A stretch of DNA of 64,000 nucleotides from a virus. Lineage: Duplodnaviria; Heunggongvirae; Uroviricota; Caudoviricetes. Both the position numbers and the translations under genes were made by a program. How positions within the stretch are numbered: position 1 is the first letter of the stretch; the number at the start of each line of letters is the position of its first letter. The stretch is from positions 37,214-101,213 of IMG/VR virus record IMGVR_UViG_3300025392_000640; one strand, given 5' to 3'. This document shows positions 11,504-48,187 of the stretch, in pieces. The notes under the pieces are model-generated. The model was not told where the DNA came from. It saw only the letters and a list, made by a program, of their open reading frames with translations, and made no database searches.

Positions 11504-11699
11504 ATGCTAATCCCAATAATTCAGTTTGAAGTTCTTGAAAATGCTTTTGTCTTTCAACTTCAGCTTTGAATTTATCCGGCGTTAATTCACTCAACTCAAC
11601 AATATCAAAATGCTGTGTTGGTATTGTAAACACTTGGTATCCACTATTTGTTTTACGAATAGTAATTCCATCCTCAATCCATTCTTTAAGATTTTCCAT
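11448..11699 (-). CDS. hypothetical protein
   Basis: 83-aa ORF. Confidence 0.4.
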   Translation of the reverse strand: MENLKEWIEDGITIRKTNSGYQVFTIPTQHFDIVELSELTPDKFKAEVERQKHFQELQTELLGLAFGKRVEEGLFDDLFEKMD

Positions 11700-13173
11700 A
11701 CTTTTGTTTTATTCTTTTTAAGAAATCAATTTCATCAATAAGTTTATCGTGTTTTTCATTTAATACATCTTCCATATTAGAATGCAAATCCAAAATAATA
11801 GAATTATCTTTCATAGAATCATAGGATTTTATAAATAAATTTTCATCTAAAATACCGTTACCATATCCAACGAGTCTCCAACCTGATGTAGAAAATACAC
11901 TTTCTTTTTTTCTATTAAAATTTAAACTTTCTTTTAAACCACTAATAGTACTAATTAGTTTTTTACTCATATATTTTTCATCACGATATCTATTCCAAAA
12001 TTCTGTATCGGTTCTTTTTGTAATGTAGTGATATTGTAAAAAATCAACAATATCATCATTCAGTTCTCCCAATGCCCAATTGTATTGACCCATATTATAA
12101 GGGTCTTTAAAATCAATATCAAATTTAGTTAATACTAATAATCCAATAATTACCATACCAATAGCAGTTGCTTCCAATGGTTCAACAAATCCGGTACTCA
12201 ATCCAACACCAATACAATTATTAATCCAATTGCTTTTATATCTACCAGGTTCAAAAGATATGGTTCGATTGCATTCAATTTCATGTCCTAATAAATTCTC
12301 AACTTCTTTTTTAGCTTCATCCGAATTTATATAATTGTTATCAAACACATAACCACATCCCCATCTACTTTGTAAAGGTATTTGCCATAACCAACCATAT
12401 TTCATAGCTATAGCCTTTGTGTATGTTGCAATATCAGTTTTGGATTGAGGTAATTGAAATGGTAATGCAGAATTAACTGTTAATCTATCTTTATATGATA
12501 TCCATTCTGTATTATATAATTTACCAATAATTAATCTTTTGAATCCGCTACAATCAAATACGAAATGGATATTTTCTACTTTTGTTTCATTTTCTAGCTC
12601 TATTGTTTTAATATCACCAAATCTATTTTGTACAAAATTAGTAATCACCCCTTCAATTCTTTTTACACCTCTACTTTCTGCAATTTTTTTAAAATAACTT
12701 GCTACTAAGTGGGCATCAAAATGAAATGAAAAATTGACCATTTGAGTATTATTTAATGAAATAGCAGATTTATTGTTATATGCCATATATTTAGATGCAA
12801 TCTTATCATTTAAATCATATCCATTTTTCATCAAAAACCCCCAATATTCACTATCACATATAGGTACATTATCTGGATTAGTTGAAAAGAAATCGTGAAT
12901 ATATTTTTTACCGTTACCATCCCAATTTTCAAAACTAACTCCTAATTTATGTGTTGCATTTGTTTCAACCATAAATTCATTATAATCTATTTTAACAAAT
13001 TGTAAAAAGTCCATCAATCTAGGAATACTACCTTCACCAGCACCCAATATACCAATATCTTCACTTTCAATTAAAGTTATATCAGCGCTACCATCATTAT
13101 ATAAATGCTGTGCCCATAATGCTGACATCCATCCAGCTGTTCCACCACCTACTATAACAATTTGTTTTTTCAT
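11686..13173 (-). CDS. Flavin-dependent (tryptophan-type) halogenase family protein
   Basis: N-terminal FAD site IVIVGGGTAGWMSA and the halogenase signature GWLWQIPL (WxWxIP). Confidence 0.8.
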   Translation of the reverse strand: MKKQIVIVGGGTAGWMSALWAQHLYNDGSADITLIESEDIGILGAGEGSIPRLMDFLQFVKIDYNEFMVETNATHKLGVSFENWDGNGKKYIHDFFSTNPDNVPICDSEYWGFLMKNGYDLNDKIASKYMAYNNKSAISLNNTQMVNFSFHFDAHLVASYFKKIAESRGVKRIEGVITNFVQNRFGDIKTIELENETKVENIHFVFDCSGFKRLIIGKLYNTEWISYKDRLTVNSALPFQLPQSKTDIATYTKAIAMKYGWLWQIPLQSRWGCGYVFDNNYINSDEAKKEVENLLGHEIECNRTISFEPGRYKSNWINNCIGVGLSTGFVEPLEATAIGMVIIGLLVLTKFDIDFKDPYNMGQYNWALGELNDDIVDFLQYHYITKRTDTEFWNRYRDEKYMSKKLISTISGLKESLNFNRKKESVFSTSGWRLVGYGNGILDENLFIKSYDSMKDNSIILDLHSNMEDVLNEKHDKLIDEIDFLKRIKQKYGKS

Positions 13174-38066: not shown

Positions 38067-38223
38067 TAAAGATACGAACATTTTTCATACTAACAAGCTT
38101 TTTTTCAATTATTTTTAAAAATTCTTTATTGAAAATCAACACGTTACGGGAGTGATTTTGGGGCAAAAAATAACCCATTGAAAATCAATGAGTTATGAAT
38201 GTGTTGAAAATCAATGAGTTACG
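38067..38223 (-). promoter_or_regulatory. Promoter (38067-38100) plus three tandem copies of the TTGAAAATCAAYRMGTTA element (38128, 38178, 38204)
   Basis: taaagatacgaaca...; ttgaaaatcaacacgttacgg, ttgaaaatcaatgagttatg, ttgaaaatcaatgagttacg. Confidence 0.55.
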
Positions 38224-38228
38224 TCATA

Positions 38229-38534
38229 TTAATAATTTTCGTAATACCAAGCCCTTATTTTAGCCCCTAATTCCATATCATTAGGATATTGTTTAACCCA
38301 ATTCTTAGGAATAGTTATATGCTCTCTACTTTCAGCACTCCCTTTTATGTAACAATCCCTACATAATTGTCCAGCTCCTTCAATATATCCAGTTCTGAAA
38401 TCAACGTGTGTAGTTTTTAATGTGGTAGTTTTACAACCACAAAGGATACAATCCTCATAAATGTCATCGTTATTTCCTACAGATGTAACTAATCCGTTTT
38501 CATCTATATTAAGTGGTACGTGTTGGCTTCCCAT
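38229..38534 (-). CDS. Cys-rich hypothetical protein
   Basis: 101 aa with CILCGC...CRDC. Confidence 0.45.
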   Translation of the reverse strand: MGSQHVPLNIDENGLVTSVGNNDDIYEDCILCGCKTTTLKTTHVDFRTGYIEGAGQLCRDCYIKGSAESREHITIPKNWVKQYPNDMELGAKIRAWYYENY

Positions 38535-38555
38535 AAGTTTAATGTTTTATTTATA

Positions 38556-38589
38556 CAAATATACGAAATTATTTTGAATCCACCAAATT
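38556..38589 (-). promoter_or_regulatory. Bacteroidetes-type promoter for 38229..38534
   Basis: acaaatatacgaaattattttgaatccaccaaat. Confidence 0.55.
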
Positions 38590-39003
38590 TATGTTTTCTG
38601 TGTACCATTCCAATATCTCCTCACCAGCTTTTATATCCCTTAAAGCAAATCCTCTATCACTTAAATTTTGTCTTTCTCTATCAGGCCATGCAGAATTACA
38701 AAAACTAAATCCGTGGAATAGAAAATTTAATCCTTTATATAATCGTATTACTTTGAATCCACATTCATCATTAATAAAGTAGGCATCTAATAATTCGAAT
38801 ACTTCCTTTGGTATTAAATGTAATTTATCATTTGGTATAAGATATATCCCACTATCATATTCCCACGCTGGAAACACTCTATCACCTTTGGGTATATCTT
38901 TAATAGCAAATACACCAACGCCATTAATAGGTGAAACGCCAATCTTAGTTTTTATATTCTTACTTAAATGATATAGTACTTCTTCGGTTATATCCGTTTC
39001 CAT
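38569..39003 (-). CDS. SET-domain-like protein (putative protein lysine methyltransferase)
   Basis: GVGVFAIKDIPKGDRVFPAWEY at the N-terminus and ALRDIKAGEEILEWY at the C-terminus. Confidence 0.5.
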   Translation of the reverse strand: METDITEEVLYHLSKNIKTKIGVSPINGVGVFAIKDIPKGDRVFPAWEYDSGIYLIPNDKLHLIPKEVFELLDAYFINDECGFKVIRLYKGLNFLFHGFSFCNSAWPDRERQNLSDRGFALRDIKAGEEILEWYTENINLVDSK

Positions 39004-40514
39004 TATTCTTTAATATATTTAAAAAATTCTTCGTTAGTCATATATTCTTTATGTATCTTACCATATTCCTTTTCCATTAGTTTAGAAAAATAATAAGCTT
39101 TATCCAATTTATCGGCGGTTATTAATTCACGTTCAATCATTTTTTTATCTTTGAGTAAACCTGCCATTTCTAATATATGACACCATATTCCCCACCCACT
39201 CATACCATGCCCATCTTTAAAATCCAACATATTTAATAATCTATGTTTTGATATTTCAATAAGTTCTTTATTATAATCAGTTATTACCATTTCATTTTTA
39301 ATAAATTTCCAAAATGTAGTATCATTTCTACCAGACAAATAGTGCATTTGTAAAAGGTCTCTGGTATCATCAATCATCTTATTTACACCTTCATTATATT
39401 TTCTTTTGCTAATTTCGCATTTTATAGATTCATTTGATTTTAAATAATGATTTATAAAATTAGTAATTCCTATTAAGGATATATGAATAGATGTAGCTTG
39501 TAATGGTTCTAAAAAATGAGAAGCTAATCCAAATGATACAACATTATTATACCAAGTATTTTCATATCTACCAGCTTCAAATTTAATTTCTCTAATTGAA
39601 TCTATTTCTTGTCCTAGTTTTCTTTCTACCTCATCTATTGCTTTGCTTTTTGTTTGAAATCCATCACAATAAACATATCCATTTCCATATCTTTCCTGCA
39701 AAGGTATTTTCCACATCCAACCGGCATTCATTGTTTCTGCTAAAGTTTCAAATCTAACATTCTTAGATGTTATTTCAGTTGAAAATGGTATAGCTGTATT
39801 TACAGGTAAATTTTCTTTATAAGAAATCCATTTATTTTTTGTCTTACCTATTAATATTCTATTAAATCCACTACAATCAAACCACATATCAGCAGAAAGA
39901 TTTTGACCATTTGATAATTTAATATTTTTTACATATTCATTTTCATCAAAGTTTACATCAGTAATTTCACTATCTATTACTTTAACTCCAAACTTTAAAC
40001 AAATATCCTTAAAATATTTACCAACTTCATGTCCGTCAAAATGATATGAATATGTATTATGTCCTAATGTAAGTGCACCAGTTTCTCCTCTTTTTGTTTT
40101 TTTAGAAAATGGTGTAATTTTATTTTCTAATAAATGATATTGTAAAGAAGCCATATCACCTCTACCATTTTTTAATATAGAACCAAAGAATGCTATATCA
40201 ATATGATTGTGGGATGTCATTGATGCATTTATGGGCGAGTATGTATATTTACCATCACCTTTCCAATTTTTTAATTTAATTCCCAATTTAATAGTTCCCT
40301 TAGTTTTTTTAAGCATATCAACTTCATCAACTAAATTTTCAGGCCATTCTTGATTTATAAACCAAGGGAAAGAACCTGTTGAACCTTCACCCGCTCCAAT
40401 GATACCATATTTAGAACTTTCAATAACTGTCACTTCATGCCCTACAGTTTCTTTTATCAAAGTTGCTGCAGCTATCCAACCTGCCGTTCCACCACCTACT
40501 ATAACAATTTTCAT
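39003..40514 (-). CDS. Flavin-dependent (tryptophan-type) halogenase family protein, second copy
   Basis: KIVIVGGGTAGWIAA FAD motif and AGWMWKIPL (WxWxIP). Confidence 0.8.
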   Translation of the reverse strand: MKIVIVGGGTAGWIAAATLIKETVGHEVTVIESSKYGIIGAGEGSTGSFPWFINQEWPENLVDEVDMLKKTKGTIKLGIKLKNWKGDGKYTYSPINASMTSHNHIDIAFFGSILKNGRGDMASLQYHLLENKITPFSKKTKRGETGALTLGHNTYSYHFDGHEVGKYFKDICLKFGVKVIDSEITDVNFDENEYVKNIKLSNGQNLSADMWFDCSGFNRILIGKTKNKWISYKENLPVNTAIPFSTEITSKNVRFETLAETMNAGWMWKIPLQERYGNGYVYCDGFQTKSKAIDEVERKLGQEIDSIREIKFEAGRYENTWYNNVVSFGLASHFLEPLQATSIHISLIGITNFINHYLKSNESIKCEISKRKYNEGVNKMIDDTRDLLQMHYLSGRNDTTFWKFIKNEMVITDYNKELIEISKHRLLNMLDFKDGHGMSGWGIWCHILEMAGLLKDKKMIERELITADKLDKAYYFSKLMEKEYGKIHKEYMTNEEFFKYIKE

Positions 40515-40520
40515 ATTGTA

Positions 40521-41201
40521 TTATTTTATTTGTTCTAATTGAAATACACCACCTTCTCCAGTTGCTTTATCATATCCATTATGATTTTTTGTATAGCTAA
40601 AATTATAAAATGGTTTGATTACTATTTCATTTTCTTCTAACCATTTTTTTAATGCCATTTCATTACCTTCGGATTCAAAAGGTCTGAATTTAATTGGATT
40701 ACTATAATAACCTTCCACAAATTCACTAATAACTTTTATTACATTCTTATCACAAATAAAAAATTGGTCATTAATCCTATCAGTACCTATCCAATCCTGT
40801 CCATCAAAGTATTTATCGGGGCAATGAAATGTATTTGGTTCTAATTGAGATAAAAAATATTCAGATATACTTTCATTATTAAAATTTAAATCACATCTAC
40901 TTTTTATATACCAAGCATAATCTTCTTCAATAGATTCTATTACACTTTTTAAATTCCAAAATTGCCAAAAACCAGATTGACCTGCTTCATTCTTTCTATG
41001 CTCATACCACTTTGTAGTTGTAATATCTATTGGTGGTGTTGTATATATTTTTTTGATTTTCCATTTACTATTTAACCAATCTGGTTTGTAATGTGTAAAA
41101 CAAGAAACATAGGTATCATAATCTCCTATGTTTTTTAAATGATTTGTTTTTATCTCATCATTACCTCTATATGGGCCGGCCAATAATATTGCTACTTTCA
41201 T
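40521..41201 (-). CDS. hypothetical protein in halogenase operon
   Basis: 226 aa; 6-nt gap to the upstream gene. Confidence 0.5.
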   Translation of the reverse strand: MKVAILLAGPYRGNDEIKTNHLKNIGDYDTYVSCFTHYKPDWLNSKWKIKKIYTTPPIDITTTKWYEHRKNEAGQSGFWQFWNLKSVIESIEEDYAWYIKSRCDLNFNNESISEYFLSQLEPNTFHCPDKYFDGQDWIGTDRINDQFFICDKNVIKVISEFVEGYYSNPIKFRPFESEGNEMALKKWLEENEIVIKPFYNFSYTKNHNGYDKATGEGGVFQLEQIK

Positions 41202-41917
41202 TACATTTTAGTTATACATCCACAATTATCAAAATAGTTTTCAATATATTTTCTATCACCACTACCTGCTTCTTTATAACTAGAAATAAATGGAGATAAT
41301 TCATTCACATCAATTACATCAAACCATTTTTGAAGATATGGATTTGATATCATTTTATCACATATAGAAAACATTTCAGCATTTGAAAGATTTTCTTTTT
41401 GTTGTACATACCCCCACCCCAATAAAACTTCAGGTGTATTCATTGGTCTAACATCGTTTAATAAATTTGAAAATGTTTTATTAAACATATCTTTTAAATT
41501 ATCAGTAGTACCAGCAATTATATGGTCTCCAATATGAAATGGATAATGATAATCAATTGGTCTAAAATACATAGAACTGCATATTAGTTTACTATCATCC
41601 AATTTTACTTTACCCAAATCACTCCAATATTCATCACCTCGTACTTTAATACTATATTTAGTTTCTACTAAATTCAATCCAGCCAATGAAGAAATTATTT
41701 GATATTCTAAATTTTGCATCCCATTTTTTCCAACAAAATCAGGAATTTCATTTTGATTTGATTTAACAATTTTCCAATTGGATGGAACTTCAAATGGTAT
41801 AACATATTCTTCCCAAGTTGAAATTATAACATTCCAATCGGAATAATTACTTAACCACATTTGTAGTTTATCATCTTCACATCTACCCTGTATAACAATT
41901 GTTAAATCAGAAATCAT
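41201..41917 (-). CDS. hypothetical protein in halogenase operon
   Basis: 238 aa; start and stop codons overlap its neighbours. Confidence 0.5.
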   Translation of the reverse strand: MISDLTIVIQGRCEDDKLQMWLSNYSDWNVIISTWEEYVIPFEVPSNWKIVKSNQNEIPDFVGKNGMQNLEYQIISSLAGLNLVETKYSIKVRGDEYWSDLGKVKLDDSKLICSSMYFRPIDYHYPFHIGDHIIAGTTDNLKDMFNKTFSNLLNDVRPMNTPEVLLGWGYVQQKENLSNAEMFSICDKMISNPYLQKWFDVIDVNELSPFISSYKEAGSGDRKYIENYFDNCGCITKM

Positions 41918-41918
41918 T

Positions 41919-42542
41919 TTATTTGTTTACAATCCAGAATCTTCTACTCCATTGATTGAATACTTTATTACCGGTATCAGTCCAATCGTAATGATGTTGA
42001 TATGCGTTTAACGAACCATCGGTAAACTTTTCATATTTAATTGGAAATTGCTTAAATATATCTTCAACGTGAGAAGTTGATGGAGTACCACCAATATCAG
42101 ATAAAGATTGGTCAACACCACTTTCATGTCTAAAATATATTTCAGAATCGTTACTATCATAAACCACAGTTTCAAAAAACATTAAATCACAATTATTAAT
42201 ACAATTAATTAAATGCTCTTTGTGAAAGTTTTCCAAATGATAATACAATCCAAAATTAATTATAATATCCCAATGTCCCCAATTCCAATCTGAAGAATCT
42301 AAGTTAAAACACTCAGCTGTTACTTGTGGATAGTTTTCTTTTATACCATTTACATTTTCTTGTCTACCCTCAACGCAATGTACCGTTGCACCTAATTCCG
42401 CAAAGTATGCAGCAATGTATCCGTTAAATCCACCCAATTCTAATATACGTTTTCCTTTGAAAAATTCAGCTGGGTATTTGGAAAGTATAAAATTTATCCT
42501 GTTCACTTGCCAATCAGGATGATAGGTTGTTTCTTTTATCAT
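41919..42542 (-). CDS. Class I SAM-dependent methyltransferase
   Basis: RILELGGFNGYIAAYFAELGATVHCVE (motif I). Confidence 0.7.
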   Translation of the reverse strand: MIKETTYHPDWQVNRINFILSKYPAEFFKGKRILELGGFNGYIAAYFAELGATVHCVEGRQENVNGIKENYPQVTAECFNLDSSDWNWGHWDIIINFGLYYHLENFHKEHLINCINNCDLMFFETVVYDSNDSEIYFRHESGVDQSLSDIGGTPSTSHVEDIFKQFPIKYEKFTDGSLNAYQHHYDWTDTGNKVFNQWSRRFWIVNK

Positions 42543-42569
42543 AAATTGTTTTTTAATAAGTATTTAGTA

Positions 42570-43112
42570 TTATATTTTTACTATCCAGCTACCATCTTTA
42601 AATGTAGCATCAACTTTGTCATCAAATATAATTCCTAAGTTGTGTCTAATATTACCCCAACCATAATCATGCCCACATACAAATCCACCGGGTTTAATTA
42701 TAGTTTTATAATGAGTCATATCATAGTGGACTCCTTCTAATGTATGAGAACCATCTATATAAACAACATCCCATTGTTGCTCTTTCAAAATAGAAAAGGC
42801 GTTTTGGGATGTATCTCTTATTGATTTTATATTAGGAATTGATAGTGTATTCTTTAGGAATTGCTGATACACTTTATCGAATGGTGCATATGAACAAGCT
42901 AAATCATTCGGGTCATAATCATTTACATATGGGTCTATCGATATCACTTCTTTAAAGTTATCCGCAAACATTAATGTACTTTCACCAACATAGCTTCCAA
43001 TTTCAATCATACTCATTTCCGAAGTTGGACGGATATTATTAATCCATTCAATCATTTGTTCTAAACCTTCTCTTTGTTCAGAACCACGCATTTCATAAAA
43101 TTGGTCTTTCAT
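42570..43112 (-). CDS. Class I SAM-dependent methyltransferase (TylF/O-MT-like)
   Basis: MIEIGSYVGESTLMFA and DGSHTLEGV. Confidence 0.7.
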   Translation of the reverse strand: MKDQFYEMRGSEQREGLEQMIEWINNIRPTSEMSMIEIGSYVGESTLMFADNFKEVISIDPYVNDYDPNDLACSYAPFDKVYQQFLKNTLSIPNIKSIRDTSQNAFSILKEQQWDVVYIDGSHTLEGVHYDMTHYKTIIKPGGFVCGHDYGWGNIRHNLGIIFDDKVDATFKDGSWIVKI

Positions 43113-43113
43113 A

Positions 43114-43602
43114 CTATAACTTAACTAAATGGTCAGCCGCATAAGTTGCGATTGGACCTAATGATTTATATCTTACTTCATATCCCATACCTTCTACCAA
43201 ACCAACTGCTTGCCTAAACACTTCATTTGATTTATACTTTGGGTCTGGATTAATATCAATATCAATCCATCTTGGTTTTGGAATACCAGCTTCTTTTAAA
43301 AATTCTGCGGTTTCAATAGCGTACCATATTTCATTTAATAAACGAACTGAACGAGTGTATTCTCTTTCGGTTTTCCATCTTCTATATAAAACATGCGCAC
43401 CTTTCCCCTTACGATACAAAGCAACTACTACCGCATAGGTTGTTTTATCCGAATGATTTTGCGAATCACATCCAATTAGGATTTCAACATTGTGGTTTTC
43501 ATTTTCTTCCATGTACTTTTGGACATAAGGAACTAATTCTAATTCCTCTTTGTCATACAATCTTTTGTATTTCATAATAAGGGTTTTGTTGTTGTACCCC
43601 AA
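43114..43602 (-). CDS. YkuK/DUF458-like RNase H-fold protein
   Basis: ILIGCDSQNHSDKTTYAVVVALYRKGKGAH resembles the YkuK family core. Confidence 0.45.
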   Translation of the reverse strand: MGYNNKTLIMKYKRLYDKEELELVPYVQKYMEENENHNVEILIGCDSQNHSDKTTYAVVVALYRKGKGAHVLYRRWKTEREYTRSVRLLNEIWYAIETAEFLKEAGIPKPRWIDIDINPDPKYKSNEVFRQAVGLVEGMGYEVRYKSLGPIATYAADHLVKL

Positions 43603-43675
43603 AAGAGACTCGAACTCTTACATCTTACGATACCGGCTTCTAAGACCGGTGTGGCTACCATTACACCATCGGGGC
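43595..43675 (-). tRNA. tRNA-Leu (anticodon UAG)
   Basis: Hand-folded: acceptor GCCCCGA/TTGGGGT, anticodon loop CTTAGAA, long variable arm, T-loop GTTCGAGTC. Confidence 0.7.
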
Positions 43676-43690
43676 TATTTAAAAGAACTA

Positions 43691-43770
43691 CTGCTGTTAG
43701 AGCAGGATTCGAACCATGCAAAGGGAGATTCGGAAAGTAACACAATGCTTGCAAGCTGGTGGTCAACCCC
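43691..43770 (-). ncRNA. tRNA-like element with canonical GGTTCGAATCC T-loop motif but no foldable cloverleaf (pseudo-tRNA?)
   Basis: ggattcgaacc at 43706-43716; 3' hairpin CTGCTCTAACAGCAG plus U-rich tail; no acceptor pairing found. Confidence 0.3.
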
Positions 43771-43844
43771 ATATTACTTTTCTATTTCTTAATCCCTGCC
43801 CACGAGACGAGTGGGTGTGTTTGCCGAAGTCATAACTGAGATGA

Positions 43845-44069
43845 CTAATTTTCACCATCTAACAATTTATTATCTTTATTAATGTTAAATGTTGCATTAT
43901 GAAAGATTCTGATTTGGTCACTACGATAGTGCCTAACTATACCACCTTCACACAATACAACACACCAAATATCATTTTCCAACATCCCACTATCGGTAAC
44001 ATAAATAGCGTAACCATCTTTGTTACCCTCAACTACAACGGGTATTGGCTTTTGAAATTCTAACATCAT
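43845..44069 (-). CDS. hypothetical protein embedded in tRNA region
   Basis: 74-aa ORF. Confidence 0.4.
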   Translation of the reverse strand: MMLEFQKPIPVVVEGNKDGYAIYVTDSGMLENDIWCVVLCEGGIVRHYRSDQIRIFHNATFNINKDNKLLDGEN

Positions 44070-44082
44070 AATAGATAATTTG

Positions 44083-44170
44083 CGGAGAGTCAGGGATTCG
44101 AACCCCAGATACCGTTTCCAGTATGACGGTTTTCAAGACCGTTCCATTCAACCACTCTGGCAACTCTCCG
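44083..44170 (-). tRNA. tRNA-Ser (UGA)
   Basis: Acceptor GGAGAGT/ACTCTCC, anticodon loop CTTGAAA, long variable arm, T-loop GGTTCGAATCC. Confidence 0.8.
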
Positions 44171-44178
44171 TTTTTATA

Positions 44179-44436
44179 CTAATAGATATTATCTTCCTTA
44201 GAAATCCTAAAATCTATACTACTTTGCCTTCTTCTAGCTTCTTCTGCTTCTTTAACCCATCTAATCCAAGTTAAAGCAACATCAATAGGTGCTAAAATCC
44301 AAGCCATAACAATAACCATAATAGTATCTAACTCTGGTGATTGTGAAGTTACACTACCATCATATCTTTTATTCAAATTTTTAAATAGCTGATAAAAACA
44401 ATAGATAACACAAATAATGTAATAACCAATAAACAT
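44179..44436 (-). CDS. small membrane protein
   Basis: Track ORF 44179..44460 trimmed to the internal Met so the start lies downstream of the promoter. Confidence 0.4.
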   Translation of the reverse strand: MFIGYYIICVIYCFYQLFKNLNKRYDGSVTSQSPELDTIMVIVMAWILAPIDVALTWIRWVKEAEEARRRQSSIDFRISKEDNIY

Positions 44437-44456
44437 AACTTTCTTTTTTAATTTTA

Positions 44457-44490
44457 TCAAAGATACGATAATATTTTCACATTACCAAAT
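44457..44490 (-). promoter_or_regulatory. Bacteroidetes-type promoter
   Basis: caaagatacgataatattttcacattaccaaat. Confidence 0.55.
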
Positions 44491-44497
44491 CTTTTTG

Positions 44498-44568
44498 TTC
44501 CCCCTCAAGGATTCGAACCTCAACTATATGGACCAAAACCACATGTACTACCGTTATACTAAAGGGGA
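44498..44568 (-). tRNA. tRNA-Gln (UUG)
   Basis: U1-A72 acceptor TCCCCTT/AGGGGGA, anticodon loop TTTTGGT. Confidence 0.8.
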
Positions 44569-44709
44569 GTGTCTCAAGCATTCTACTTCCCGCAGTGCGA
44601 AATTGTATCTTACTTAGCCCATCGCTAGCGGTATGGGTACTTGAGTGTGTGAATGAAAAACATCTATTCTTCTTGCGGCCTGTTCACAATGGCCCACTTA
44701 TCTTTATCG

Positions 44710-44782
44710 AGCAGCGAAAGAGATTCGAACTCTCTCGTCCAGCTTGGAAGGCTGGCGTGCTACCATTGAACACCACCGCTGC
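44710..44782 (-). tRNA. tRNA-Gly (UCC)
   Basis: Acceptor GCAGCGG/TCGCTGC, anticodon loop CTTCCAA. Confidence 0.8.
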
Positions 44783-44890
44783 TTTTGTGTAGGTTTTTCT
44801 TTCACATTTAGCCCAAACACCAGTGAATCAATGTTTGGATTTTGAACCGAGTGCCCAATAAGGGGCTTTACAACCTACAAACTCTGTCAG

Positions 44891-44963
44891 AGCGGAAGAC
44901 CAGGCTCGAACTGGCCACCTATGCCTTGGCAAGGCATCGCTCTACCGAATGAGCTACTTCCGC
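44891..44963 (-). tRNA. tRNA-Gly (GCC)
   Basis: Acceptor GCGGAAG/CTTCCGC, anticodon loop TTGCCAA. Confidence 0.85.
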
Positions 44964-44971
44964 AATTTTTG

Positions 44972-45045
44972 TGGGAAAGACTGGGTTCGAACCAGTGACC
45001 TCAAAATTATGAGTTTTTTGCTCTAACCAACTGAGCTACATTCCC
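44972..45045 (-). tRNA. tRNA with CAU anticodon (elongator Met or Ile2/lysidine)
   Basis: Acceptor GGGAATG/CTTTCCC with one U-U mismatch, anticodon loop CTCATAA, all-AU anticodon stem. Confidence 0.7.
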
Positions 45046-45162
45046 AATAAAGATTATATTCATTCTGCCGTTAGTAGTCTATTTACCATTAACTACCACG
45101 TGTATCTAGTCAGACTTCTTTGGGGTTGGTATCGTTCCCTTCATATAATCTTTAAATAAGGT

Positions 45163-45252
45163 GCCGGTGGTGAGATTGGTTACTCACACGAAGTCCCTTT
45201 CGGATGAATCGCCCTTTCTAGTTCGGATGCGTCTAAATTCCGCCACACCGGC
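45163..45252 (-). ncRNA. tRNA-like structured element (perfect 7-bp terminal helix GCCGGTG/CACCGGC, non-canonical T-loop TAACCAAT)
   Basis: Hand fold: terminal helix, D-like hairpin GCG-GAATTTAGA-CGC, hairpin CGAAAGGGACTTCG, T-like stem GTGAG/CTCAC; no standard anticodon arm. Confidence 0.3.
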
Positions 45253-45269
45253 ATATATCTTTTAATCTT

Positions 45270-45569
45270 TTAATCTTTTAATTCATTAATAAGACTATCT
45301 ATCATATCATCACCTAAAGAAATTTGATGTAGGTTTTTTATTTTTAAATAGTTTTCTAAATACATTGATGCGGTTACTAACTTGTCACCTTTTTGTATCT
45401 CTATTTTAATAATACCGCTTGTGTTTGTTGTTTCGGATGGTGTGATTTTTTTAGTCAAACTTTCAATTTTTTCGGCTATCGTATCCAAATCATTTTTATC
45501 TATTTCAACAGTATTAACATCATCTCCATATCCATAATCTATGAGTATGTTTTTAATTTTTTCTTTCAT
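45270..45569 (-). CDS. hypothetical protein
   Basis: Track ORF 45270..45608 overlaps tRNA-Ala; start moved to the internal Met (MKEKIKN). Confidence 0.4.
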   Translation of the reverse strand: MKEKIKNILIDYGYGDDVNTVEIDKNDLDTIAEKIESLTKKITPSETTNTSGIIKIEIQKGDKLVTASMYLENYLKIKNLHQISLGDDMIDSLINELKD

Positions 45570-45584
45570 AACTTTTTGTTTAGT

Positions 45585-45657
45585 GGAGAATGAGGGAGTC
45601 GAACCCACGACCTTCTGAATGCAAATCAGACGCTCTAGCCAACTGAGCTAATTCCCC
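45585..45657 (-). tRNA. tRNA-Ala (UGC)
   Basis: Acceptor GGGGAAT (G3-U70 wobble present), anticodon loop TTTGCAT. Confidence 0.8.
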
Positions 45658-45667
45658 ATATTTATCG

Positions 45668-45753
45668 TGCCTCAAGTGGGAGTCGAACCCACACGAACTT
45701 TTCGGTTCACAGGATTTTAAGTCCTGCGTGGCTACCAATTACACCATCGAGGC
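45668..45753 (-). tRNA. tRNA-Leu (UAA)
   Basis: Acceptor GCCTCGA/TTGAGGC, anticodon loop CTTAAAA, long variable arm. Confidence 0.8.
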
Positions 45754-45759
45754 AGTTTG

Positions 45760-45831
45760 TAGTCCGGCGTGGAATCGAACCACGAACCAAATCTTAGAAG
45801 GATTTTGTTATATCCATTTAACTACCAGACC
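45760..45831 (-). tRNA. tRNA-Arg (UCU)
   Basis: Anticodon loop CTTCTAA, T-arm CGTGG-TTCGATT-CCACG. Confidence 0.8.
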
Positions 45832-46027
45832 AAAAAATAGATGAGAGGGTTATTACGTCTAATAACTCCAAAGTTTCTACCGGCCGTTTATGGAATATGC
45901 GCACTGACCATAAACTAAGCTTTCGTCTGCATCTCATCTCAAAAAACATCAAATGGGATTCCAACCCATACTTTCGGGCAATTACTCCCGATGTGCTAAC
46001 GTCAGTTACACTATTGATATTTTTATG

Positions 46028-46101
46028 CGGAACGTAGGGAACTCGAATCCCTGACCTCTACAGTGACAGTGTAGCATTCTAACCAACTGAACTAACGCTC
46101 C
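46028..46101 (-). tRNA. tRNA-Asp (GUC)
   Basis: Acceptor GGAGCGT/ACGTTCC, anticodon loop CTGTCAC. Confidence 0.8.
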
Positions 46102-46176
46102 GTAATTACTAATTCATCTTTATTTGCACCACCACGTCATGCGTAGGTTGACATATACCTCAATGAATTAGTTCTG

Positions 46177-46250
46177 AGCCTAAGGTGAGATTCGAACTCA
46201 CGACTCCGAAATTACAAATTTCGTACTCTGGCCAACTGAGTTACTCAGGC
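46177..46250 (-). tRNA. tRNA-Thr (UGU)
   Basis: Acceptor GCCTGAG/CTTAGGC, anticodon loop TTTGTAA. Confidence 0.8.
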
Positions 46251-46258
46251 TTATATTG

Positions 46259-46330
46259 TAGTCCCGAGCGGAATCGAACCGCCCTTTTCAGGATGAAAAC
46301 CTAACGTCCTAACCGATAGACGACGGGACC
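46259..46330 (-). tRNA. tRNA-Glu (UUC)
   Basis: Anticodon loop TTTTCAT, T-arm GGCGG-TTCGATT-CCGCT. Confidence 0.8.
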
Positions 46331-46350
46331 ATATTATTTAAAAGAACATT

Positions 46351-46384
46351 ACAAATATACGATAATTTTTTCAAACTACCAAAT
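46351..46384 (-). promoter_or_regulatory. Bacteroidetes-type promoter immediately upstream of tRNA-Glu and the downstream tRNA block
   Basis: acaaatatacgataattttttcaaactaccaaat. Confidence 0.55.
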
Positions 46385-46393
46385 TTGTTTTTG

Positions 46394-46482
46394 CGGAGAG
46401 CGGAGTATTCGAAACTCGCCCAACTTAATGGGTTCTCGTTTAGCAAACGAGCGGGGAACACCTTTGCCCTCCTTCACTCTCC
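46394..46482 (-). tRNA. tRNA-Ser (GCU)
   Basis: Acceptor GGAGAGT/GCTCTCC, anticodon loop TTGCTAA, long variable arm. Confidence 0.75.
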
Positions 46483-46484
46483 AA

Positions 46485-46559
46485 TGGTGTGACCGAAGAG
46501 AATCGAACTCTTACATAAAGTGCCACAAACTTTCGCCCTACCATTAGGCTACGGCCACC
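46485..46559 (-). tRNA. tRNA-His (GUG) with encoded G-1 and 3' CCA
   Basis: GGTGGCCG... 5' end (extra G-1), anticodon loop TTGTGGC, 3' ...CGGTCACACCA. Confidence 0.8.
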
Positions 46560-46565
46560 ATGTTG

Positions 46566-46640
46566 TAGCGTGAACAAGATTCGAACTTGTGTCTGAGCCT
46601 TATGAGAGCTCCGTAAGAAAACCAACTCTACCATCACGCT
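46566..46640 (-). tRNA. tRNA with CAU anticodon (Met/Ile2), second copy
   Basis: A1-U72 acceptor AGCGTGA/TCACGCT, anticodon loop CTCATAA. Confidence 0.75.
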
Positions 46641-46707
46641 ATTTGTGGAATTGAACCACCTTCCCAGCTTAATGCCGGGCGATACATCCAGTATCCTTCA
46701 CCGGTTG
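46641..46707 (-). ncRNA. Truncated tRNA-like fragment (T-arm plus anticodon-like hairpin, no 3' acceptor strand)
   Basis: GGTGGTTCAATTCCAC T-arm abuts the 5' end of the adjacent tRNA; hairpin CCCGG-CATTAAG-CTGGG. Confidence 0.3.
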
Positions 46708-46778
46708 AGGCGTGTATTGGAATCGAACCAATCTAAAAGGATTTGCAGTCCTCCACCTAGCCACTCGGACAACTCGCC
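46708..46778 (-). tRNA. tRNA-Cys (GCA)
   Basis: Acceptor GGCGAGT (one A-A mismatch), anticodon arm GAGGA-CTGCAAA-TCCTT, T-arm ATTGG-TTCGATT-CCAAT; overall similar to bacterial tRNA-Cys. Confidence 0.65.
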
Positions 46779-47321
46779 TTATCGGTTTAGTTTATTAATA
46801 CATTCATCTATCTTATCTCTCAATCTTCCGCCACGTCCAAAATCACCATCAACTTGTACATGCCTCCACATTGGAATACGATGTTTCATCCATTTGAACT
46901 CTGCACTCAATTTCATATCATCAATTGCAATCCAGTTACTAATCTTATTATCCTTAACCCATTTTACAATCTGATGTGCTCTCTCAAACTCTAAGGATGG
47001 ATTACTCATCTTATTCCAAATTCCCAGCTTTCTACTACTCATATGTGTTGTGATATCAATCAATGGAGCATGAATACCAAACTCAATAAATGTATCACTC
47101 ATTTGCCTAAGAGTAAAGTGCAACTTCCAATCTGATGATAATACTAATTCTGCATTAGTCTTGTCACAAATTTCTTGCAATGCTTCACAATCCTCTTTTA
47201 CTAATGGGTAAGGTATTGTAAACTCATTCATAGTATTTTCGTTTATCTTCACTTTACCATCATCCCATGTTGCCCAAGCTAATGGCCCATCAACATCAAT
47301 AAAAATAATTTTCTTTCTCAT
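46779..47321 (-). CDS. HAD-superfamily phosphatase-like protein (embedded in tRNA cluster)
   Basis: N-terminal IIFIDVDGPL (HAD motif I) and WIAIDD (motif IV-like). Confidence 0.55.
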   Translation of the reverse strand: MRKKIIFIDVDGPLAWATWDDGKVKINENTMNEFTIPYPLVKEDCEALQEICDKTNAELVLSSDWKLHFTLRQMSDTFIEFGIHAPLIDITTHMSSRKLGIWNKMSNPSLEFERAHQIVKWVKDNKISNWIAIDDMKLSAEFKWMKHRIPMWRHVQVDGDFGRGGRLRDKIDECINKLNR

Positions 47322-47347
47322 AACTTTAATTTTTAATTTTTTAATTG

Positions 47348-47421
47348 TACTCTCTAAGAGACTCGAACTCCTAACCCCTTCGTCCGTAGCGAAGTGCTCT
47401 AATCCATTGAGCTAAGAGAGC
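47348..47421 (-). tRNA. tRNA-Arg (ACG)
   Basis: Anticodon arm CTTCG-CTACGGA-CGAAG. Confidence 0.8.
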
Positions 47422-47427
47422 TATTTG

Positions 47428-47496
47428 CACGCAGTGAAGGAATCGAACCCTCTCGTAAAGATTTGGAGTCTTTTTAGCTACCATAGCCTACCACGT
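47428..47496 (-). tRNA. tRNA-Trp (CCA)
   Basis: A1-U72 acceptor ACGTGGT, anticodon arm AAAGA-CTCCAAA-TCTTT; short D region. Confidence 0.65.
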
Positions 47497-47503
47497 ATGT
47501 TTG

Positions 47504-47577
47504 TTGGAATAGCGAGATTCGAACTTGCCACCTTCTCGGTATCAGCGAGATGCTCTAACCAAATGAGCTATATTCCA
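47504..47577 (-). tRNA. tRNA-Ile (GAU)
   Basis: Acceptor TGGAATA/TATTCCA, anticodon loop CTGATAC. Confidence 0.75.
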
Positions 47578-47587
47578 ATTTTTAAAG

Positions 47588-47662
47588 TAGGGTAAAGAGG
47601 ACTCGAACCTCCACGATGTCTTGCTCCCAAAGCAAGCGGCCTAGCCATTGGCCCATTACCCT
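47588..47662 (-). tRNA. tRNA-Pro (UGG)
   Basis: Acceptor AGGGTAA/TTACCCT, anticodon loop TTTGGGA. Confidence 0.8.
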
Positions 47663-47668
47663 ATATTG

Positions 47669-47742
47669 TTCCCCCGGTAGGATTCGAACCTACAACCCAC
47701 CGGGTAAAAGCCGGTTACTCTAGCCAATTGAGCTACAAGGGA
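47669..47742 (-). tRNA. tRNA-Lys (UUU)
   Basis: Anticodon arm ACCGG-CTTTTAC-CCGGT, T-arm GTAGG-TTCGAAT-CCTAC. Confidence 0.8.
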
Positions 47743-47792
47743 TTCTTTTGTCACTCTTGTCACTTTCCATAATCATTGTTTTTAATTGTTAG

Positions 47793-47864
47793 TGGTAATG
47801 AGTGGAATCGAACCACTGCTACTAAGTCTTCAGCCTAGCGCTCTACCAACTGAGCTACATCACC
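47793..47864 (-). tRNA. tRNA-Phe (GAA)
   Basis: Acceptor GGTGATG/CATTACC, anticodon loop CTGAAGA. Confidence 0.85.
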
Positions 47865-47928
47865 TTGCCTTTTTTAGCGTTTTTGAATAGAACGCAAGGA
47901 CAGTACGACCTGAAAACTATTAGGGTTG

Positions 47929-48009
47929 TGGGAGTAAGAAGACTCGAACTTCTGAAGCCGATGGCGTTTGATTTACAGTCAAATGTGATTGCCGCTACAC
48001 GATACTCCC
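47929..48009 (-). tRNA. tRNA-Tyr (GUA)
   Basis: Acceptor GGGAGTA/TACTCCC, anticodon loop CTGTAAA, long variable arm. Confidence 0.8.
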
Positions 48010-48014
48010 AATTG

Positions 48015-48086
48015 TAGAAGTGGAGAATTATGATATCCCGTCCTCTTGGATGTAAGCCAAGCGCTCTCCCTCTGAGCTACACTTCT
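48015..48086 (-). tRNA. tRNA-Val (UAC) with non-canonical T-loop
   Basis: Perfect acceptor AGAAGTG/CACTTCT, D-arm GCTC-AGAGGGA-GAGC, anticodon loop CTTACAT; T-loop ATCATAA lacks TTC. Confidence 0.6.
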
Positions 48087-48114
48087 ATTTTCCACAATGT
48101 CAAAGAACCAAATG

Positions 48115-48187
48115 CGTTAGTGATAGGATTCGAACCTATGGCCACTTGATTAACAGTCAAGAGCTCTACCAGCTGAGCTACACCAAC
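48115..48187 (-). tRNA. tRNA-Asn (GUU)
   Basis: Acceptor GTTGGTG/CACTAAC, anticodon loop CTGTTAA. Confidence 0.85.

What the first reader, a model, noticed from the sequence alone, without database searches (positions are those of the whole stretch)
38569..43112. Operon combining a flavin-dependent halogenase, a SET-domain protein, two SAM methyltransferases and two unknown enzymes; a second halogenase at 11686-13173
Two paralogous about 500-aa proteins carry the GGGTAGW FAD site and the WxWxIP signature (GWLWQIPL / AGWMWKIPL) of tryptophan-type flavin-dependent halogenases. The copy at 39003-40514 lies in a gap-free co-directional block: SET-like protein (38569-39003), halogenase, two unknown 226- and 238-aa proteins, then two class I SAM-dependent methyltransferases (one TylF-like with DGSH). 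Spacing of 0-27 nt implies co-transcription from the promoter at about 38556. This looks like a small tailoring pathway (halogenation plus methylation of an aromatic, peptide or sugar substrate), which is unusual in a phage. A Cys-rich 101-aa ORF (38229-38534) sits just downstream and could be a substrate peptide, though that is speculative. The other halogenase abuts a cyclophilin gene. WxWxIP proteins without the catalytic Lys/Glu pair may be non-halogenating, so activity is unproven.
Basis: partly seen in the sequence, partly recalled or inferred. Interest (0 to 1): 0.8.

Follow-up and report, generated by a model that had tools for sequence, protein, structure and literature searches.

The report
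Phage halogenase, SET and sugar-enzyme island
The genes are real: two flavin-dependent halogenase homologues, a SET methyltransferase, two SAM methyltransferases and two glycosyltransferase-like proteins, but they form a shuffled cargo island in a lake phage, not one fixed pathway, and halogenase genes in phages are already known.

Summary

Both halogenases keep the catalytic Lys (K76). Hal2 keeps the Glu (E334). Hal1 has Gln (Q339), and this Gln is conserved across a large, intact phage clade.

Relatives are lake-metagenome phage contigs of up to 306 kb. They share a backbone: RNaseH-like gene, then a variable island, then SET and a zinc-ribbon-like ORF. In 40 complete islands I found 21 architectures with 0-4 halogenase copies. 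The sugar-type genes, the halogenases and SET each occur without the others. A halogenase sits directly upstream of SET in 57 of 66 informative loci, and the pairing recurs in one distant phage.

The proposed promoter at 38556 lies downstream of the block. The Cys-rich ORF is a backbone gene, not a substrate peptide.

Phage halogenases (VirX1; Syn9 tandem pair with dioxygenases) are already known. The SET pairing, the Lys/Gln clade and the copy-number variation are new details. The substrate is unknown.

The parts
43114..43602 (-). RNaseH-like (PF04308) gene. It is the conserved upstream border of the island. The likely true start is the ATG at 43575, just after tRNA-Leu.
   Evidence: Pfam 81.6 bits. 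It is 77-87% identical in relatives at the same position. Sequence read.
42570..43112 (-). Class I SAM methyltransferase (Methyltransf_24, with the DGSH motif at residues 120-123).
   Evidence: Pfam 56 bits, plus a sub-threshold RMNT_CmcI match. It occurs in many but not all related islands.
41919..42542 (-). Class I SAM methyltransferase (Methyltransf_23).
   Evidence: Pfam 33.2 bits. It lies directly upstream of GT-A-like genes in the phage glycan clusters L002 and L003. It also lies directly upstream of halogenase arrays that have no GT genes.
41201..41917 (-). WavE-like protein (LPS-core synthesis family), a presumed sugar-transfer enzyme. It carries an invariant IKVRGDE motif (D95, E96).
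   Evidence: Pfam PF07507 29.6 bits against a cutoff of 27, covering profile positions 38-173 of 305. The L003 homologue scores 43.9 bits. Family alignment.
40521..41201 (-). 226-aa protein with a GT-A (nucleotide-sugar transferase) fold and no sequence-family assignment.
39003..40514 (-). Hal1, a flavin-dependent halogenase homologue. GGGTAG at residues 7-12, K76 (40287-40289), WMWKIP at 266-271, and Q339 (39498-39500) in place of the PrnA Glu346.
   Evidence: Pfam 317.2 bits. PDB alignments. Column counts. Codons checked.
38569..39003 (-). SET-domain protein of 144 aa. Its start overlaps the Hal1 stop (TAATG). It has GVGVFA, C102-N103-S104 and EILEWY134.
   Evidence: Pfam 29.3 bits covering 104 of 105 profile positions. 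It has 681 homologues, the top 120 at 69% identity or more. Invariant residues. The family profile retrieves Pfam SET proteins.
38229..38534 (-). Cys-rich 101-aa ORF (CxxC...CxxC, zinc-ribbon-like). It is the conserved downstream backbone gene and not part of the variable cargo.
   Evidence: It is 43-86% identical in relatives and is present whether or not a halogenase is there. No family hit.
38170..38196 (-). Terminator-like hairpin followed by a T-run. This is the first plausible transcript end downstream of the block.
   Evidence: The number of such sites is no higher than in shuffles, so this is weak evidence.
11686..13173 (-). Hal2, a flavin-dependent halogenase homologue with the full Lys/Glu pair (K76 at 12946-12948, E334 at 12172-12174) and WLWQIP.
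   Evidence: Pfam 380.1 bits. The best PDB match is Xcc4156 (6y1w) at 239 bits, with PrnA at 227 bits. The same gene order appears in the metagenome contig L023.
13173..13607 (-). Cyclophilin-type peptidyl-prolyl isomerase. Its stop overlaps the Hal2 start.
   Evidence: Pfam 144.3 bits. Adjacency is confirmed in L023 but is not seen in the distant relative L024.

Best explanation
The block is the variable cargo island of an uncultured lake phage whose relatives include contigs of 163 and 306 kb. The window's gene set (RNA ligase, DNA ligase, GroES-like protein, a large tRNA array) suggests to me a T4-like phage, but no structural or hallmark gene was examined. The island lies between the tRNA/GOLLD-RNA array with its RNaseH-like gene and a conserved run of small genes that begins with SET and the zinc-ribbon-like ORF. 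It is a mosaic of at least two cassettes that assort independently. (a) A sugar-tailoring cassette: two SAM methyltransferases, a WavE-like protein and a GT-A-fold protein. By inference it builds or methylates a glycan on the host envelope or on a phage protein. (b) Hal1 followed by SET. Hal1 and Hal2 most likely work as two-component flavin-dependent halogenases. A host flavin reductase would supply FADH2, since no reductase gene was found in the window. FADH2, O2 and halide would give hypohalous acid at the flavin. The WxWxIP motif would keep the substrate away from the flavin, and Lys76 would deliver the halogen to an electron-rich aromatic carbon. Hal2 has the full Lys/Glu pair. Hal1 belongs to a large, intact phage clade with Lys/Gln. 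This points to a more activated substrate (phenol-, indole- or pyrrole-like, free or as a protein side chain) or to slower chemistry. Neither protein keeps the tryptophan-binding elements of PrnA/RebH, so 'tryptophan halogenase' is only a family label. What is shown: gene identities, motifs, the GT-A fold, backbone synteny and the combinatorial island contents. What is inferred: enzyme activity, the FADH2 source, the substrate class and the biological role.
For: Family and motifs. Lys is present in every Hal1-family sequence that covers that position (133 of 135; two are N-terminally truncated), and Gln replaces Glu in 128 of the 135 aligned sequences. In the 80 SET loci, 98 of 98 halogenase genes keep WxWxIP and have no internal stop, with 67 Gln and 31 Glu. 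The isolated cyanophage S-RIM44 also has FLEPLQAT. Backbone synteny with a variable island. There are 21 architectures in 40 complete islands, with halogenase copy numbers of 0 (7 islands), 1 (16), 2 (15), 3 (1) and 4 (1). The GT-A and Methyltransf_23 pair sits in glycan clusters without halogenases. Another island state carries a GT29 sialyltransferase and a CMP-sugar synthetase instead. GT-A fold. A halogenase lies immediately upstream of SET in 57 of 66 loci, and a Hal2-like gene is followed by a SET-like gene in the distant phage L024. No flavin reductase was found among window ORFs of 130 aa or more. Literature: the PrnA E346Q mutant is about 100-fold slower and the Glu is absent in phenol halogenases (PMC8407142).
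Against: No activity, substrate or transcript data exist. SET is nearly a fixed backbone gene at the island border, so its adjacency to halogenases could simply reflect an insertion hot spot. The distant recurrence (L024) is a single case. Some architectures recur: Methyltransf_23, WavE, then two halogenases and SET account for 9 of the 40 islands. This is also compatible with a modular shared pathway. The 80 loci are not phylogenetically independent. The Gln variant might mean reduced or different chemistry. The T4-like assignment rests on gene content only.
Confidence: 0.6

Rival explanations
1. One dedicated tailoring pathway. The glycosyltransferase-like proteins, methyltransferases, halogenase and SET all decorate one substrate, and related phages carry variant tailoring sets for the same scaffold.
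For: The genes are packed tightly in one direction with overlapping stop and start codons. Orders such as Methyltransf_23, WavE, (p64), halogenase, halogenase, SET recur in 9 of 40 complete islands. Tailoring sets of natural-product clusters also vary combinatorially (general knowledge).
Against: Every component occurs without the others. GT-A plus Methyltransf_23 occurs without a halogenase. Four halogenases occur without any GT, with SET present in one case and absent in another. SET occurs with methyltransferases only or with a sialyltransferase and a CMP-sugar synthetase. No scaffold-forming enzyme (NRPS, PKS, precursor peptide) is present in the island. The Cys-rich ORF is a backbone gene.
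Confidence: 0.15
2. A protein-modification module. Hal1 and SET (in relatives, together with the conserved 64-aa protein and Asp/Asn-hydroxylase-like or 2OG oxygenases) halogenate and methylate side chains of a host or virion protein during infection.
For: SET domains are best known as protein-lysine methyltransferases (general knowledge). A halogenase lies directly upstream of SET in 57 of 66 loci, and the pairing recurs in distant L024. Hal2 is translationally coupled to a cyclophilin, which is a protein-folding enzyme. Relatives add PF05118 and 2OG oxygenases. Iyer et al. 2010 linked phage clusters of halogenases and dioxygenases to peptide modification. In Syn9 the tandem halogenases follow the tail-fibre genes.
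Against: No target has been identified. No Hal-SET fusion was seen among the 150 best-scoring representatives listed, out of 291 matching clusters. The 64-aa protein is absent from this window. Characterised relatives (VirX1, BrvH, the Xcc enzymes) act on small aromatics in vitro. SET may simply be a backbone gene.
Confidence: 0.15
3. Passenger or decaying genes. The halogenase homologues are transient acquisitions without function, as was proposed for P-SSM2 prnA in 2005, or they are non-halogenating flavoproteins.
For: Sullivan et al. 2005 listed phage prnA among 'hypothesized transient genes'. Hal1 lacks the catalytic Glu. One relative (L006) has the Hal1 orthologue split into two ORFs.
Against: More than 1800 homologues have E of 1e-20 or better. 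In the SET loci, 98 of 98 copies are intact with all motifs. Lys is present in every sequence that covers the position, and the Gln is itself conserved. Copy number expands to as many as four. VirX1 is active.
Confidence: 0.05

Closest known systems
VirX1, the flavin-dependent halogenase of cyanophage Syn10 (PDB 6QGM)
   Same: It is a phage-encoded, stand-alone Trp_halogenase-family enzyme with GxGxxG, WxWxIP and the catalytic Lys, and its natural substrate is unknown. It matches Hal1 at 130 bits and Hal2 at 163 bits. It is characterised as an active halogenase with a wide substrate range that prefers iodide.
   Different: VirX1 is no closer to Hal1 or Hal2 than bacterial enzymes are: the best matches are 9LUQ at 199 bits and Xcc4156 at 239 bits. 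VirX1 uses a Lys/Glu pair, whereas Hal1 has Lys/Gln. Tblastn found no SET homologue in any of the 50,697 GenBank phage records searched.
Cyanophage Syn9 gp41/gp42 tandem halogenases with a dioxygenase array (Iyer et al. 2010, PMC2938197)
   Same: Tandem halogenase paralogues lie in a phage hypervariable region together with other tailoring enzymes. Relatives of this window likewise combine halogenases with 2OG or PF05118 oxygenases.
   Different: In this lineage the partner genes are SET, SAM methyltransferases and glycosyltransferase-like genes. Copy number ranges from 0 to 4 at one fixed locus next to a tRNA array. The hosts are freshwater and the phage has about 30% G+C.
Bacterial 'group C' halogenases with unknown natural substrates (Xcc4156 6Y1W, BrvH 6FRL)
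   Same: They are about 500 aa long and are the best or near-best structural-database relatives of Hal2. They lack the Trp3 and Trp4 substrate motifs of true tryptophan halogenases.
   Different: The bacterial genes sit next to TonB-dependent receptor, SapC and JmjC-like genes. No relative above 39% identity was found in 185,579 species genomes by the pattern scan.
Phage and giant-virus glycan gene sets (P-SSM2 LPS clusters; chlorovirus capsid-glycan enzymes)
   Different: Here there is only a four-gene cassette, with no sugar-nucleotide synthesis genes alongside. The target glycan is unknown.
Small viral and prokaryotic SET proteins (for example chlorovirus vSET; recalled from my own knowledge)
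   Same: They are minimal stand-alone SET domains of about 120-150 aa with a GxG motif and a C-terminal catalytic Tyr motif.
   Different: This protein has C-N-S where the canonical N-H-S motif would be. It has no sequence match in the PDB. Its neighbour is a halogenase, and its substrate is unknown.

Membership tests
Flavin-dependent halogenase (Pfam PF04820) | Profile match above the curated cutoff | tested here: met
   Hal1 scores 317.2 bits and Hal2 380.1 bits against a cutoff of 21. PHROG 2928 'tryptophan halogenase' matches at E 2.8e-96 and 6.4e-103.
Flavin-dependent halogenase (Pfam PF04820) | GxGxxG FAD-binding motif and WxWxIP motif | tested here: met
   Hal1 has GGGTAG at 7-12 and WMWKIP at 266-271. 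Hal2 has GGGTAG at 9-14 and WLWQIP starting at residue 261.
Flavin-dependent halogenase (Pfam PF04820) | Catalytic lysine (PrnA K79) | tested here: met
   K76 in both proteins aligns with the Lys of PrnA, PyrH and 9LUQ. It is invariant in alignment A3.
Flavin-dependent halogenase (Pfam PF04820) | Active-site glutamate (PrnA E346) - Hal2 | tested here: met
   Hal2 has E334 in VEPLEAT.
Flavin-dependent halogenase (Pfam PF04820) | Active-site glutamate (PrnA E346) - Hal1 | tested here: not met
   Hal1 has Q339 in LEPLQAT (codon CAA). The same Gln occurs in 128 of 135 family members and in 35 of 35 Hal1-like genes in the SET loci. This Glu is not universal in the family: it is absent in phenol halogenases.
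Flavin-dependent halogenase (Pfam PF04820) | Tunnel motif Fx.Px.Sx.G, also written FX[DE]PX[EFL] | tested here: inconclusive
   Hal1 FLEPLQATS fails the last position of FX[DE]PX[EFL] and has Ala and Ser where the motif has Ser and Gly. Hal2 FVEPLEATA passes FX[DE]PX[EFL] but has Ala and Ala at the Ser and Gly positions. The motif definitions come from PMC8407142.
Flavin-dependent halogenase (Pfam PF04820) | Halogenating activity with FADH2, O2 and halide | not testable with these tools
   This needs enzyme assays.
True tryptophan 5-, 6- or 7-halogenases (PrnA, RebH, PyrH) | Conserved tryptophan-binding residues and C-terminal substrate module | tested here: not met
   The alignments to PrnA end at residue 425-429 of 538. 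PrnA H101 and F103 align with Thr and Pro in Hal2. The motif region resembles the 'group C' enzymes that lack the Trp3 and Trp4 motifs.
SET-domain methyltransferase (PF00856) | Profile match above the cutoff, with a family profile that retrieves recognised SET proteins | tested here: met
   The match is 29.3 bits against a cutoff of 22.4 and covers profile positions 1-104 of 105. The family profile finds 291 representative clusters, and the 10 longer ones I tested match Pfam SET at 22.2-77.9 bits, nine of them above the 22.4-bit cutoff.
SET-domain methyltransferase (PF00856) | GxG SAM-binding motif and C-terminal catalytic Tyr motif | tested here: met
   GVGVFA (G28, G30) and EILEWY134 are invariant in 19 homologues. 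The comparison with the canonical motifs rests on my own knowledge.
SET-domain methyltransferase (PF00856) | Canonical NHS-x-x-PN motif and SET fold | tested here: inconclusive
   The motif is C102-N103-S104-A-W-P-D rather than N-H-S. The AF2 model was poor (pLDDT 51.2), so the fold could not be checked. There is no PDB sequence match.
GT-A glycosyltransferases | GT-A (nucleotide-diphospho-sugar transferase) fold - 226-aa protein | tested here: met
GT-A glycosyltransferases | DxD metal and nucleotide-sugar binding motif; membership of a sequence-defined family | tested here: inconclusive
   There is an invariant D104 in KSRCDLN and an invariant N144-D145, but no clear DxD. No Pfam, NCBIfam or PHROG family matches. 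The fold is shared with sugar-nucleotidyltransferases.
WavE LPS-core synthesis family (PF07507) | Profile match above the cutoff - 238-aa protein | tested here: met
   The match is 29.6 bits against a cutoff of 27, but it covers only profile positions 38-173 of 305. A homologue in L003 scores 43.9 bits. The profile-profile comparison with the 226-aa family is not significant.
TylF-type sugar O-methyltransferase | Match to the TylF family profile | tested here: not met
   The only hits are Methyltransf_24 at 56 bits, Methyltransf_23 at 18 bits and RMNT_CmcI at 17 bits, the last below its cutoff of 23.2.
RiPP-type cluster with a precursor peptide | An adjacent small ORF that co-varies with the tailoring enzymes and has a variable core | tested here: not met
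   The 101-aa ORF has a conserved 4-Cys pattern. It is kept in all relatives, including the 7 complete islands without a halogenase. The recurrent 64-aa ORF of relatives is highly conserved rather than variable, and it is absent from the window.

The most novel reading that the evidence does not exclude
The conserved pair of halogenase and SET (in relatives, together with a conserved 64-aa protein and hydroxylases) is a phage-encoded protein post-translational modification system. It would halogenate aromatic side chains and methylate lysines of a host or virion protein. The 0-4 copy halogenase array, with alternating Lys/Glu and Lys/Gln active sites, would then reflect an arms race over that target. 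This would be the first viral enzymatic protein halogenation, and the Lys/Gln clade would be a new catalytic subclass.
Probability: 0.12. Interest if true: 0.85.

Novelty: new variant of a known kind. Interest (0 to 1): 0.5.

Why it matters
Phage halogenase genes are common in aquatic viromes, yet the natural substrate and the role in infection are not known for any of them. This lineage offers a natural experiment at one fixed locus. Copy number runs from 0 to 4. A SET methyltransferase is an almost constant neighbour. A large, intact clade replaces the textbook catalytic Glu with Gln. That gives concrete enzymes and mutants to test (Hal1 Q339E, Hal2 E334Q) and a candidate functional partner. 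It also shows that the same hot spot alternately carries glycan-tailoring genes, which bears on how large lytic phages diversify their host-interaction chemistry. For biocatalysis, Lys/Gln halogenases are, as far as I know, an unexplored class.

Tried and rejected
- Megablast of the block against 50,697 phage records gave no match.
- The single-sequence Hal1 scan of IMG/VR found nothing.
- Tblastn of SET and of the 226-aa protein against GenBank phages gave no match.
- PDB sequence searches for SET, the WavE-like protein, Methyltransf_24 and Methyltransf_23 found nothing useful.
- The AF2 model of SET from a shallow alignment was too poor to use (pLDDT 51).
- The profile-profile test for distant paralogy between the WavE-like and GT-A-like proteins was not significant. 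BLASTP between the two also gave nothing.
- The promoter scan was no better than shuffles. TATAAATA is not enriched.
- PADLOC gave no meaningful defence-system hit.
- I looked for Hal-SET fusion proteins as Rosetta-stone evidence and saw none among the 150 best SET-family representatives listed.
- I looked for the relatives' 64-aa ORF in the window with tblastn and with an HMM. It is absent.
- I looked for a flavin reductase among window ORFs of 130 aa or more and found none.
- Literature searches for PDB codes 9LUQ, 9LTB and 9LU2 and for WavE were uninformative.
- The afdb50 fold library was not available.
- I rejected the Cys-rich ORF as a substrate peptide, the promoter at 38556 as the operon promoter, and the idea that halogenases are rare in phages.

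Full report
OBSERVATION. Reading in the direction of transcription, the block is:
- RNaseH-like, 43114-43602 (PF04308, 81.6 bits)
- Methyltransf_24, 42570-43112 (56 bits, with the DGSH motif)
- Methyltransf_23, 41919-42542 (33.2 bits)
- WavE-like, 41201-41917 (29.6 bits, cutoff 27)
- a 226-aa protein with no family, 40521-41201
- Hal1, 39003-40514 (Trp_halogenase, 317.2 bits)
- SET, 38569-39003 (29.3 bits, cutoff 22.4)
- a Cys-rich 101-aa ORF, 38229-38534.

Junctions are 1-nt overlaps (TAATG) or gaps of 1, 6 and 27 nt. Hal2 (11686-13173, 380.1 bits) overlaps the stop of a cyclophilin gene (13173-13607, 144.3 bits). Hal1 and Hal2 are 37% identical.

Two details of the observation fail. First, the 'promoter at about 38556' lies downstream of the SET stop codon, so it cannot drive a minus-strand block. 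Consensus promoter hits are no more frequent than in shuffled sequence, and the TATAAATA at 38548-38555 is not an enriched motif. Second, the packed block really begins at the RNaseH-like gene, which directly follows tRNA-Leu of a 25-26-gene tRNA array.

CATALYTIC RESIDUES. Alignments to solved halogenases and a 135-sequence family alignment place K76 of both proteins on PrnA K79. PrnA E346 (EPLES) aligns with E334 in Hal2 (EPLEA) but with Q339 in Hal1 (EPLQA, codon CAA).

The Gln is not a sign of decay. It occurs in 128 of 135 Hal1-family sequences, and the Lys is present in every sequence that covers that position (133 of 135). In 80 related loci, 98 of 98 halogenase genes keep WxWxIP and have no internal stop, with 67 Gln and 31 Glu. 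All 35 genes that are at least 50% identical to Hal1 carry Gln. The annotated 'tryptophan halogenase' of the isolated cyanophage S-RIM44 is also of the Gln type.

According to the literature held here, PrnA E346Q is about 100-fold slower, and the Glu is absent from phenol halogenases (PMC8407142). Neither protein keeps the tryptophan-binding elements of PrnA: the alignments stop near PrnA residue 425-429 of 538, and H101 and F103 align with Thr and Pro in Hal2. Their motif pattern resembles the 'group C' enzymes (BrvH, Xcc, VirX1), whose natural substrates are unknown (PMC8269204). So they are flavin-dependent halogenase homologues, but 'tryptophan' is only the family label.

The 238-aa protein matches the WavE LPS-core family, and a homologue scores 43.9 bits. 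A profile-profile test for kinship between the two unknowns was not significant.

SET. The Pfam match covers the whole domain. The family has 681 homologues, and the top 120 are at least 69% identical. GVGVFA, C102-N103-S104 and EILEWY134 are invariant. A family profile searched against 1.84 billion representatives finds 291 clusters. Most are stand-alone proteins of about 140 aa. The longer ones I tested match Pfam SET, and none of the 150 listed is fused to a halogenase. The structure model failed (pLDDT 51).

COMPARATIVE CONTEXT. Hal1 has more than 1800 metagenomic homologues. The contigs that carry them are mostly from lake metagenomes and reach 163 and 306 kb. They share a backbone with the window: an RNaseH-like gene (77-87% identity) on one side, and SET, the Cys-rich ORF and a run of small ORFs (43-99% identity) on the other, with a variable island in between. 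Examples of island content:
- Methyltransf_23, WavE, GT-A, a 64-aa ORF, halogenase, Hal1 (93% identical), SET
- PF05118-like, Methyltransf_24, a 253-aa ORF, Methyltransf_21, the 64-aa ORF, AdoMet_dc, halogenase, SET
- Methyltransf_23, the 64-aa ORF, halogenase, 2OG oxygenase, then three more halogenases, with no SET
- the 64-aa ORF, a 60-aa ORF, four halogenases, SET
- PNP_UDP, Methyltransf_24, Methyltransf_23, a 66-aa ORF, SET
- GT29 sialyltransferase, a CMP-sugar synthetase fused to RraA, SET.

A scan of metagenome contigs with the SET profile gave 80 loci. Among 66 loci with enough upstream sequence, a halogenase lies directly upstream of SET in 57 and on either side in 59. Among 40 complete islands there are 21 architectures, with 0 halogenases in 7 islands, 1 in 16, 2 in 15, 3 in 1 and 4 in 1. 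The window's exact architecture is not among them. In a distant IMG/VR phage (L024), a Hal2-like gene (45% identity, Glu type) is followed directly by a SET-like gene (30% identity, Pfam SET 31.4 bits), and both sit among a 2OG oxygenase, a sulfotransferase and a Hint-domain protein. No relative above 39% identity was found in 185,579 species genomes by the pattern scan.

INTERPRETATION. The data do not support an obligate six-enzyme pathway. They support a cargo hot spot where cassettes are exchanged. One cassette is of the sugar-tailoring type (methyltransferases, WavE-like, GT-A, and in other phages a sialyltransferase with a CMP-sugar synthetase). The other is a halogenase cassette of variable copy number. 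SET sits at the downstream border and is the most constant neighbour of the halogenases. That adjacency, together with its single distant recurrence, is the best hint of a functional link. An insertion hot spot next to a backbone gene would produce the same pattern. The Cys-rich ORF is a backbone gene with a conserved CxxC...CxxC pattern and is retained in islands that have no halogenase, so it is not a candidate substrate.

The mechanism I commit to is inferred from the family. Hal1 and Hal2 are two-component halogenases that use host-supplied FADH2, since no reductase was found among window ORFs of 130 aa or more. They deliver halogen through Lys76 to an electron-rich aromatic. The Lys/Gln type acts on more activated substrates or acts more slowly. 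Whether the substrate is a metabolite or a protein side chain remains open. The SET, cyclophilin and hydroxylase neighbours lean toward proteins. The in-vitro behaviour of the nearest characterised enzymes leans toward small aromatics.

COMPARISON WITH WHAT IS KNOWN. Phage 'tryptophan halogenase' genes have been noted since 2005 (P-SSM2, PMC1079782). They occur in 20 of 153 cyanophage genomes in one survey (PMC10452541) and in 69 GenBank phage records here. VirX1 of Syn10 is a characterised viral halogenase. Iyer et al. (2010) described the Syn9 cluster of two tandem halogenases and ten dioxygenases and proposed that it modifies peptides or secondary metabolites. The finding is therefore a new variant of a known kind. 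What I did not find described is the pairing with SET (one literature search, and no SET homologue in GenBank phages), the large Lys/Gln clade, and the 0-4 copy variation at a fixed locus beside a tRNA/GOLLD array.

VERDICT. The enzyme-level interpretation is largely right, but the pathway, promoter, rarity and substrate-peptide parts are not. Interest is moderate (0.5). It would rise sharply if halogenase and SET proved to be a protein-modification system.

Noticed in passing
window 48947-49361 (-): A full-length GOLLD RNA (RF02032, 304.8 bits, model positions 1-416 of 416) is embedded in the tRNA array. This fits a lake-phage origin.
   Followed up: no
window 43594-50270 (-): An array of 25 tRNA genes was called by ARAGORN. 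Rfam adds one more at 48015-48086. An uncalled tRNA-like remnant with a GGTTCGAATCC T-arm lies at about 43690-43790. The array runs straight into the RNaseH-like gene that heads the block.
   Followed up: partly
window 52628-53783 (-): A heme oxygenase (53244-53783) and a ferredoxin-dependent bilin reductase (52628-53254) form an overlapping pair. This is a cyanophage-style auxiliary gene pair in a phage with about 30% G+C.
   Followed up: no
window 50432-51133 (-): An S-adenosylmethionine lyase family protein (PF23780, 42.8 bits) is encoded in the same phage region as at least three SAM-dependent methyltransferases (Methyltransf_24, Methyltransf_23, SET). The two activities would compete for SAM unless they are separated in time.
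   Followed up: no
window 18047-26525 and 46779-47321 (-): There is an RNA-repair-like gene set: RNA ligase, an AAA_33 kinase, metallophosphoesterases, an ATP-dependent DNA ligase, a cREC_REC domain and a HAD_SAK_2 protein.
   Followed up: no
L007:2113-2307, L012:9805-9999, L015:6598-6792 and about 40 of loci L032-L111: A conserved 64-66-aa ORF (consensus INDGHYLELMDRLH...HPL...AYQxxGNKxPE) usually sits directly upstream of the first halogenase. It remains next to SET in islands that have no halogenase. It is absent from this window by tblastn and by HMM search.
   Followed up: partly
L006:4500-6027: The closest Hal1 orthologue after L007 (85-96% identity) is split into ORFs of 107 and 383 aa. 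This is either a frameshift or an assembly error.
   Followed up: no
L024:384-7516 and L027:3717-13225: Distant marine phage contigs place SET-like genes among other tailoring-type genes. L024 has a 2OG oxygenase, a sulfotransferase, a Hint/intein-domain protein and a Hal2-like halogenase. L027 has a carbamoyltransferase, a Hint/intein-domain protein and a radical SAM enzyme.
   Followed up: partly
L025:7104-8997 (and L026): In these relatives the same island position holds a GT29 sialyltransferase and a CMP-sugar cytidylyltransferase fused to RraA, followed by SET. There is no halogenase.
   Followed up: partly
window 38100-38230 (-): The motif ACTCATTGATTTTCAA (and a variant GTTGATTTTCAA) is repeated two to three times in the intergenic region after the Cys-rich ORF. 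It overlaps the terminator-like hairpin.
   Followed up: no
window 24004-24969, 58294-58704, 62641-63267, 14454-14780 (-): Other cargo genes in the window are a GT2 glycosyltransferase, a NifU/IscU-like protein, GTP cyclohydrolase I and a GroES-like co-chaperonin. The GroES-like call rests on reading the sequence only.
   Followed up: no
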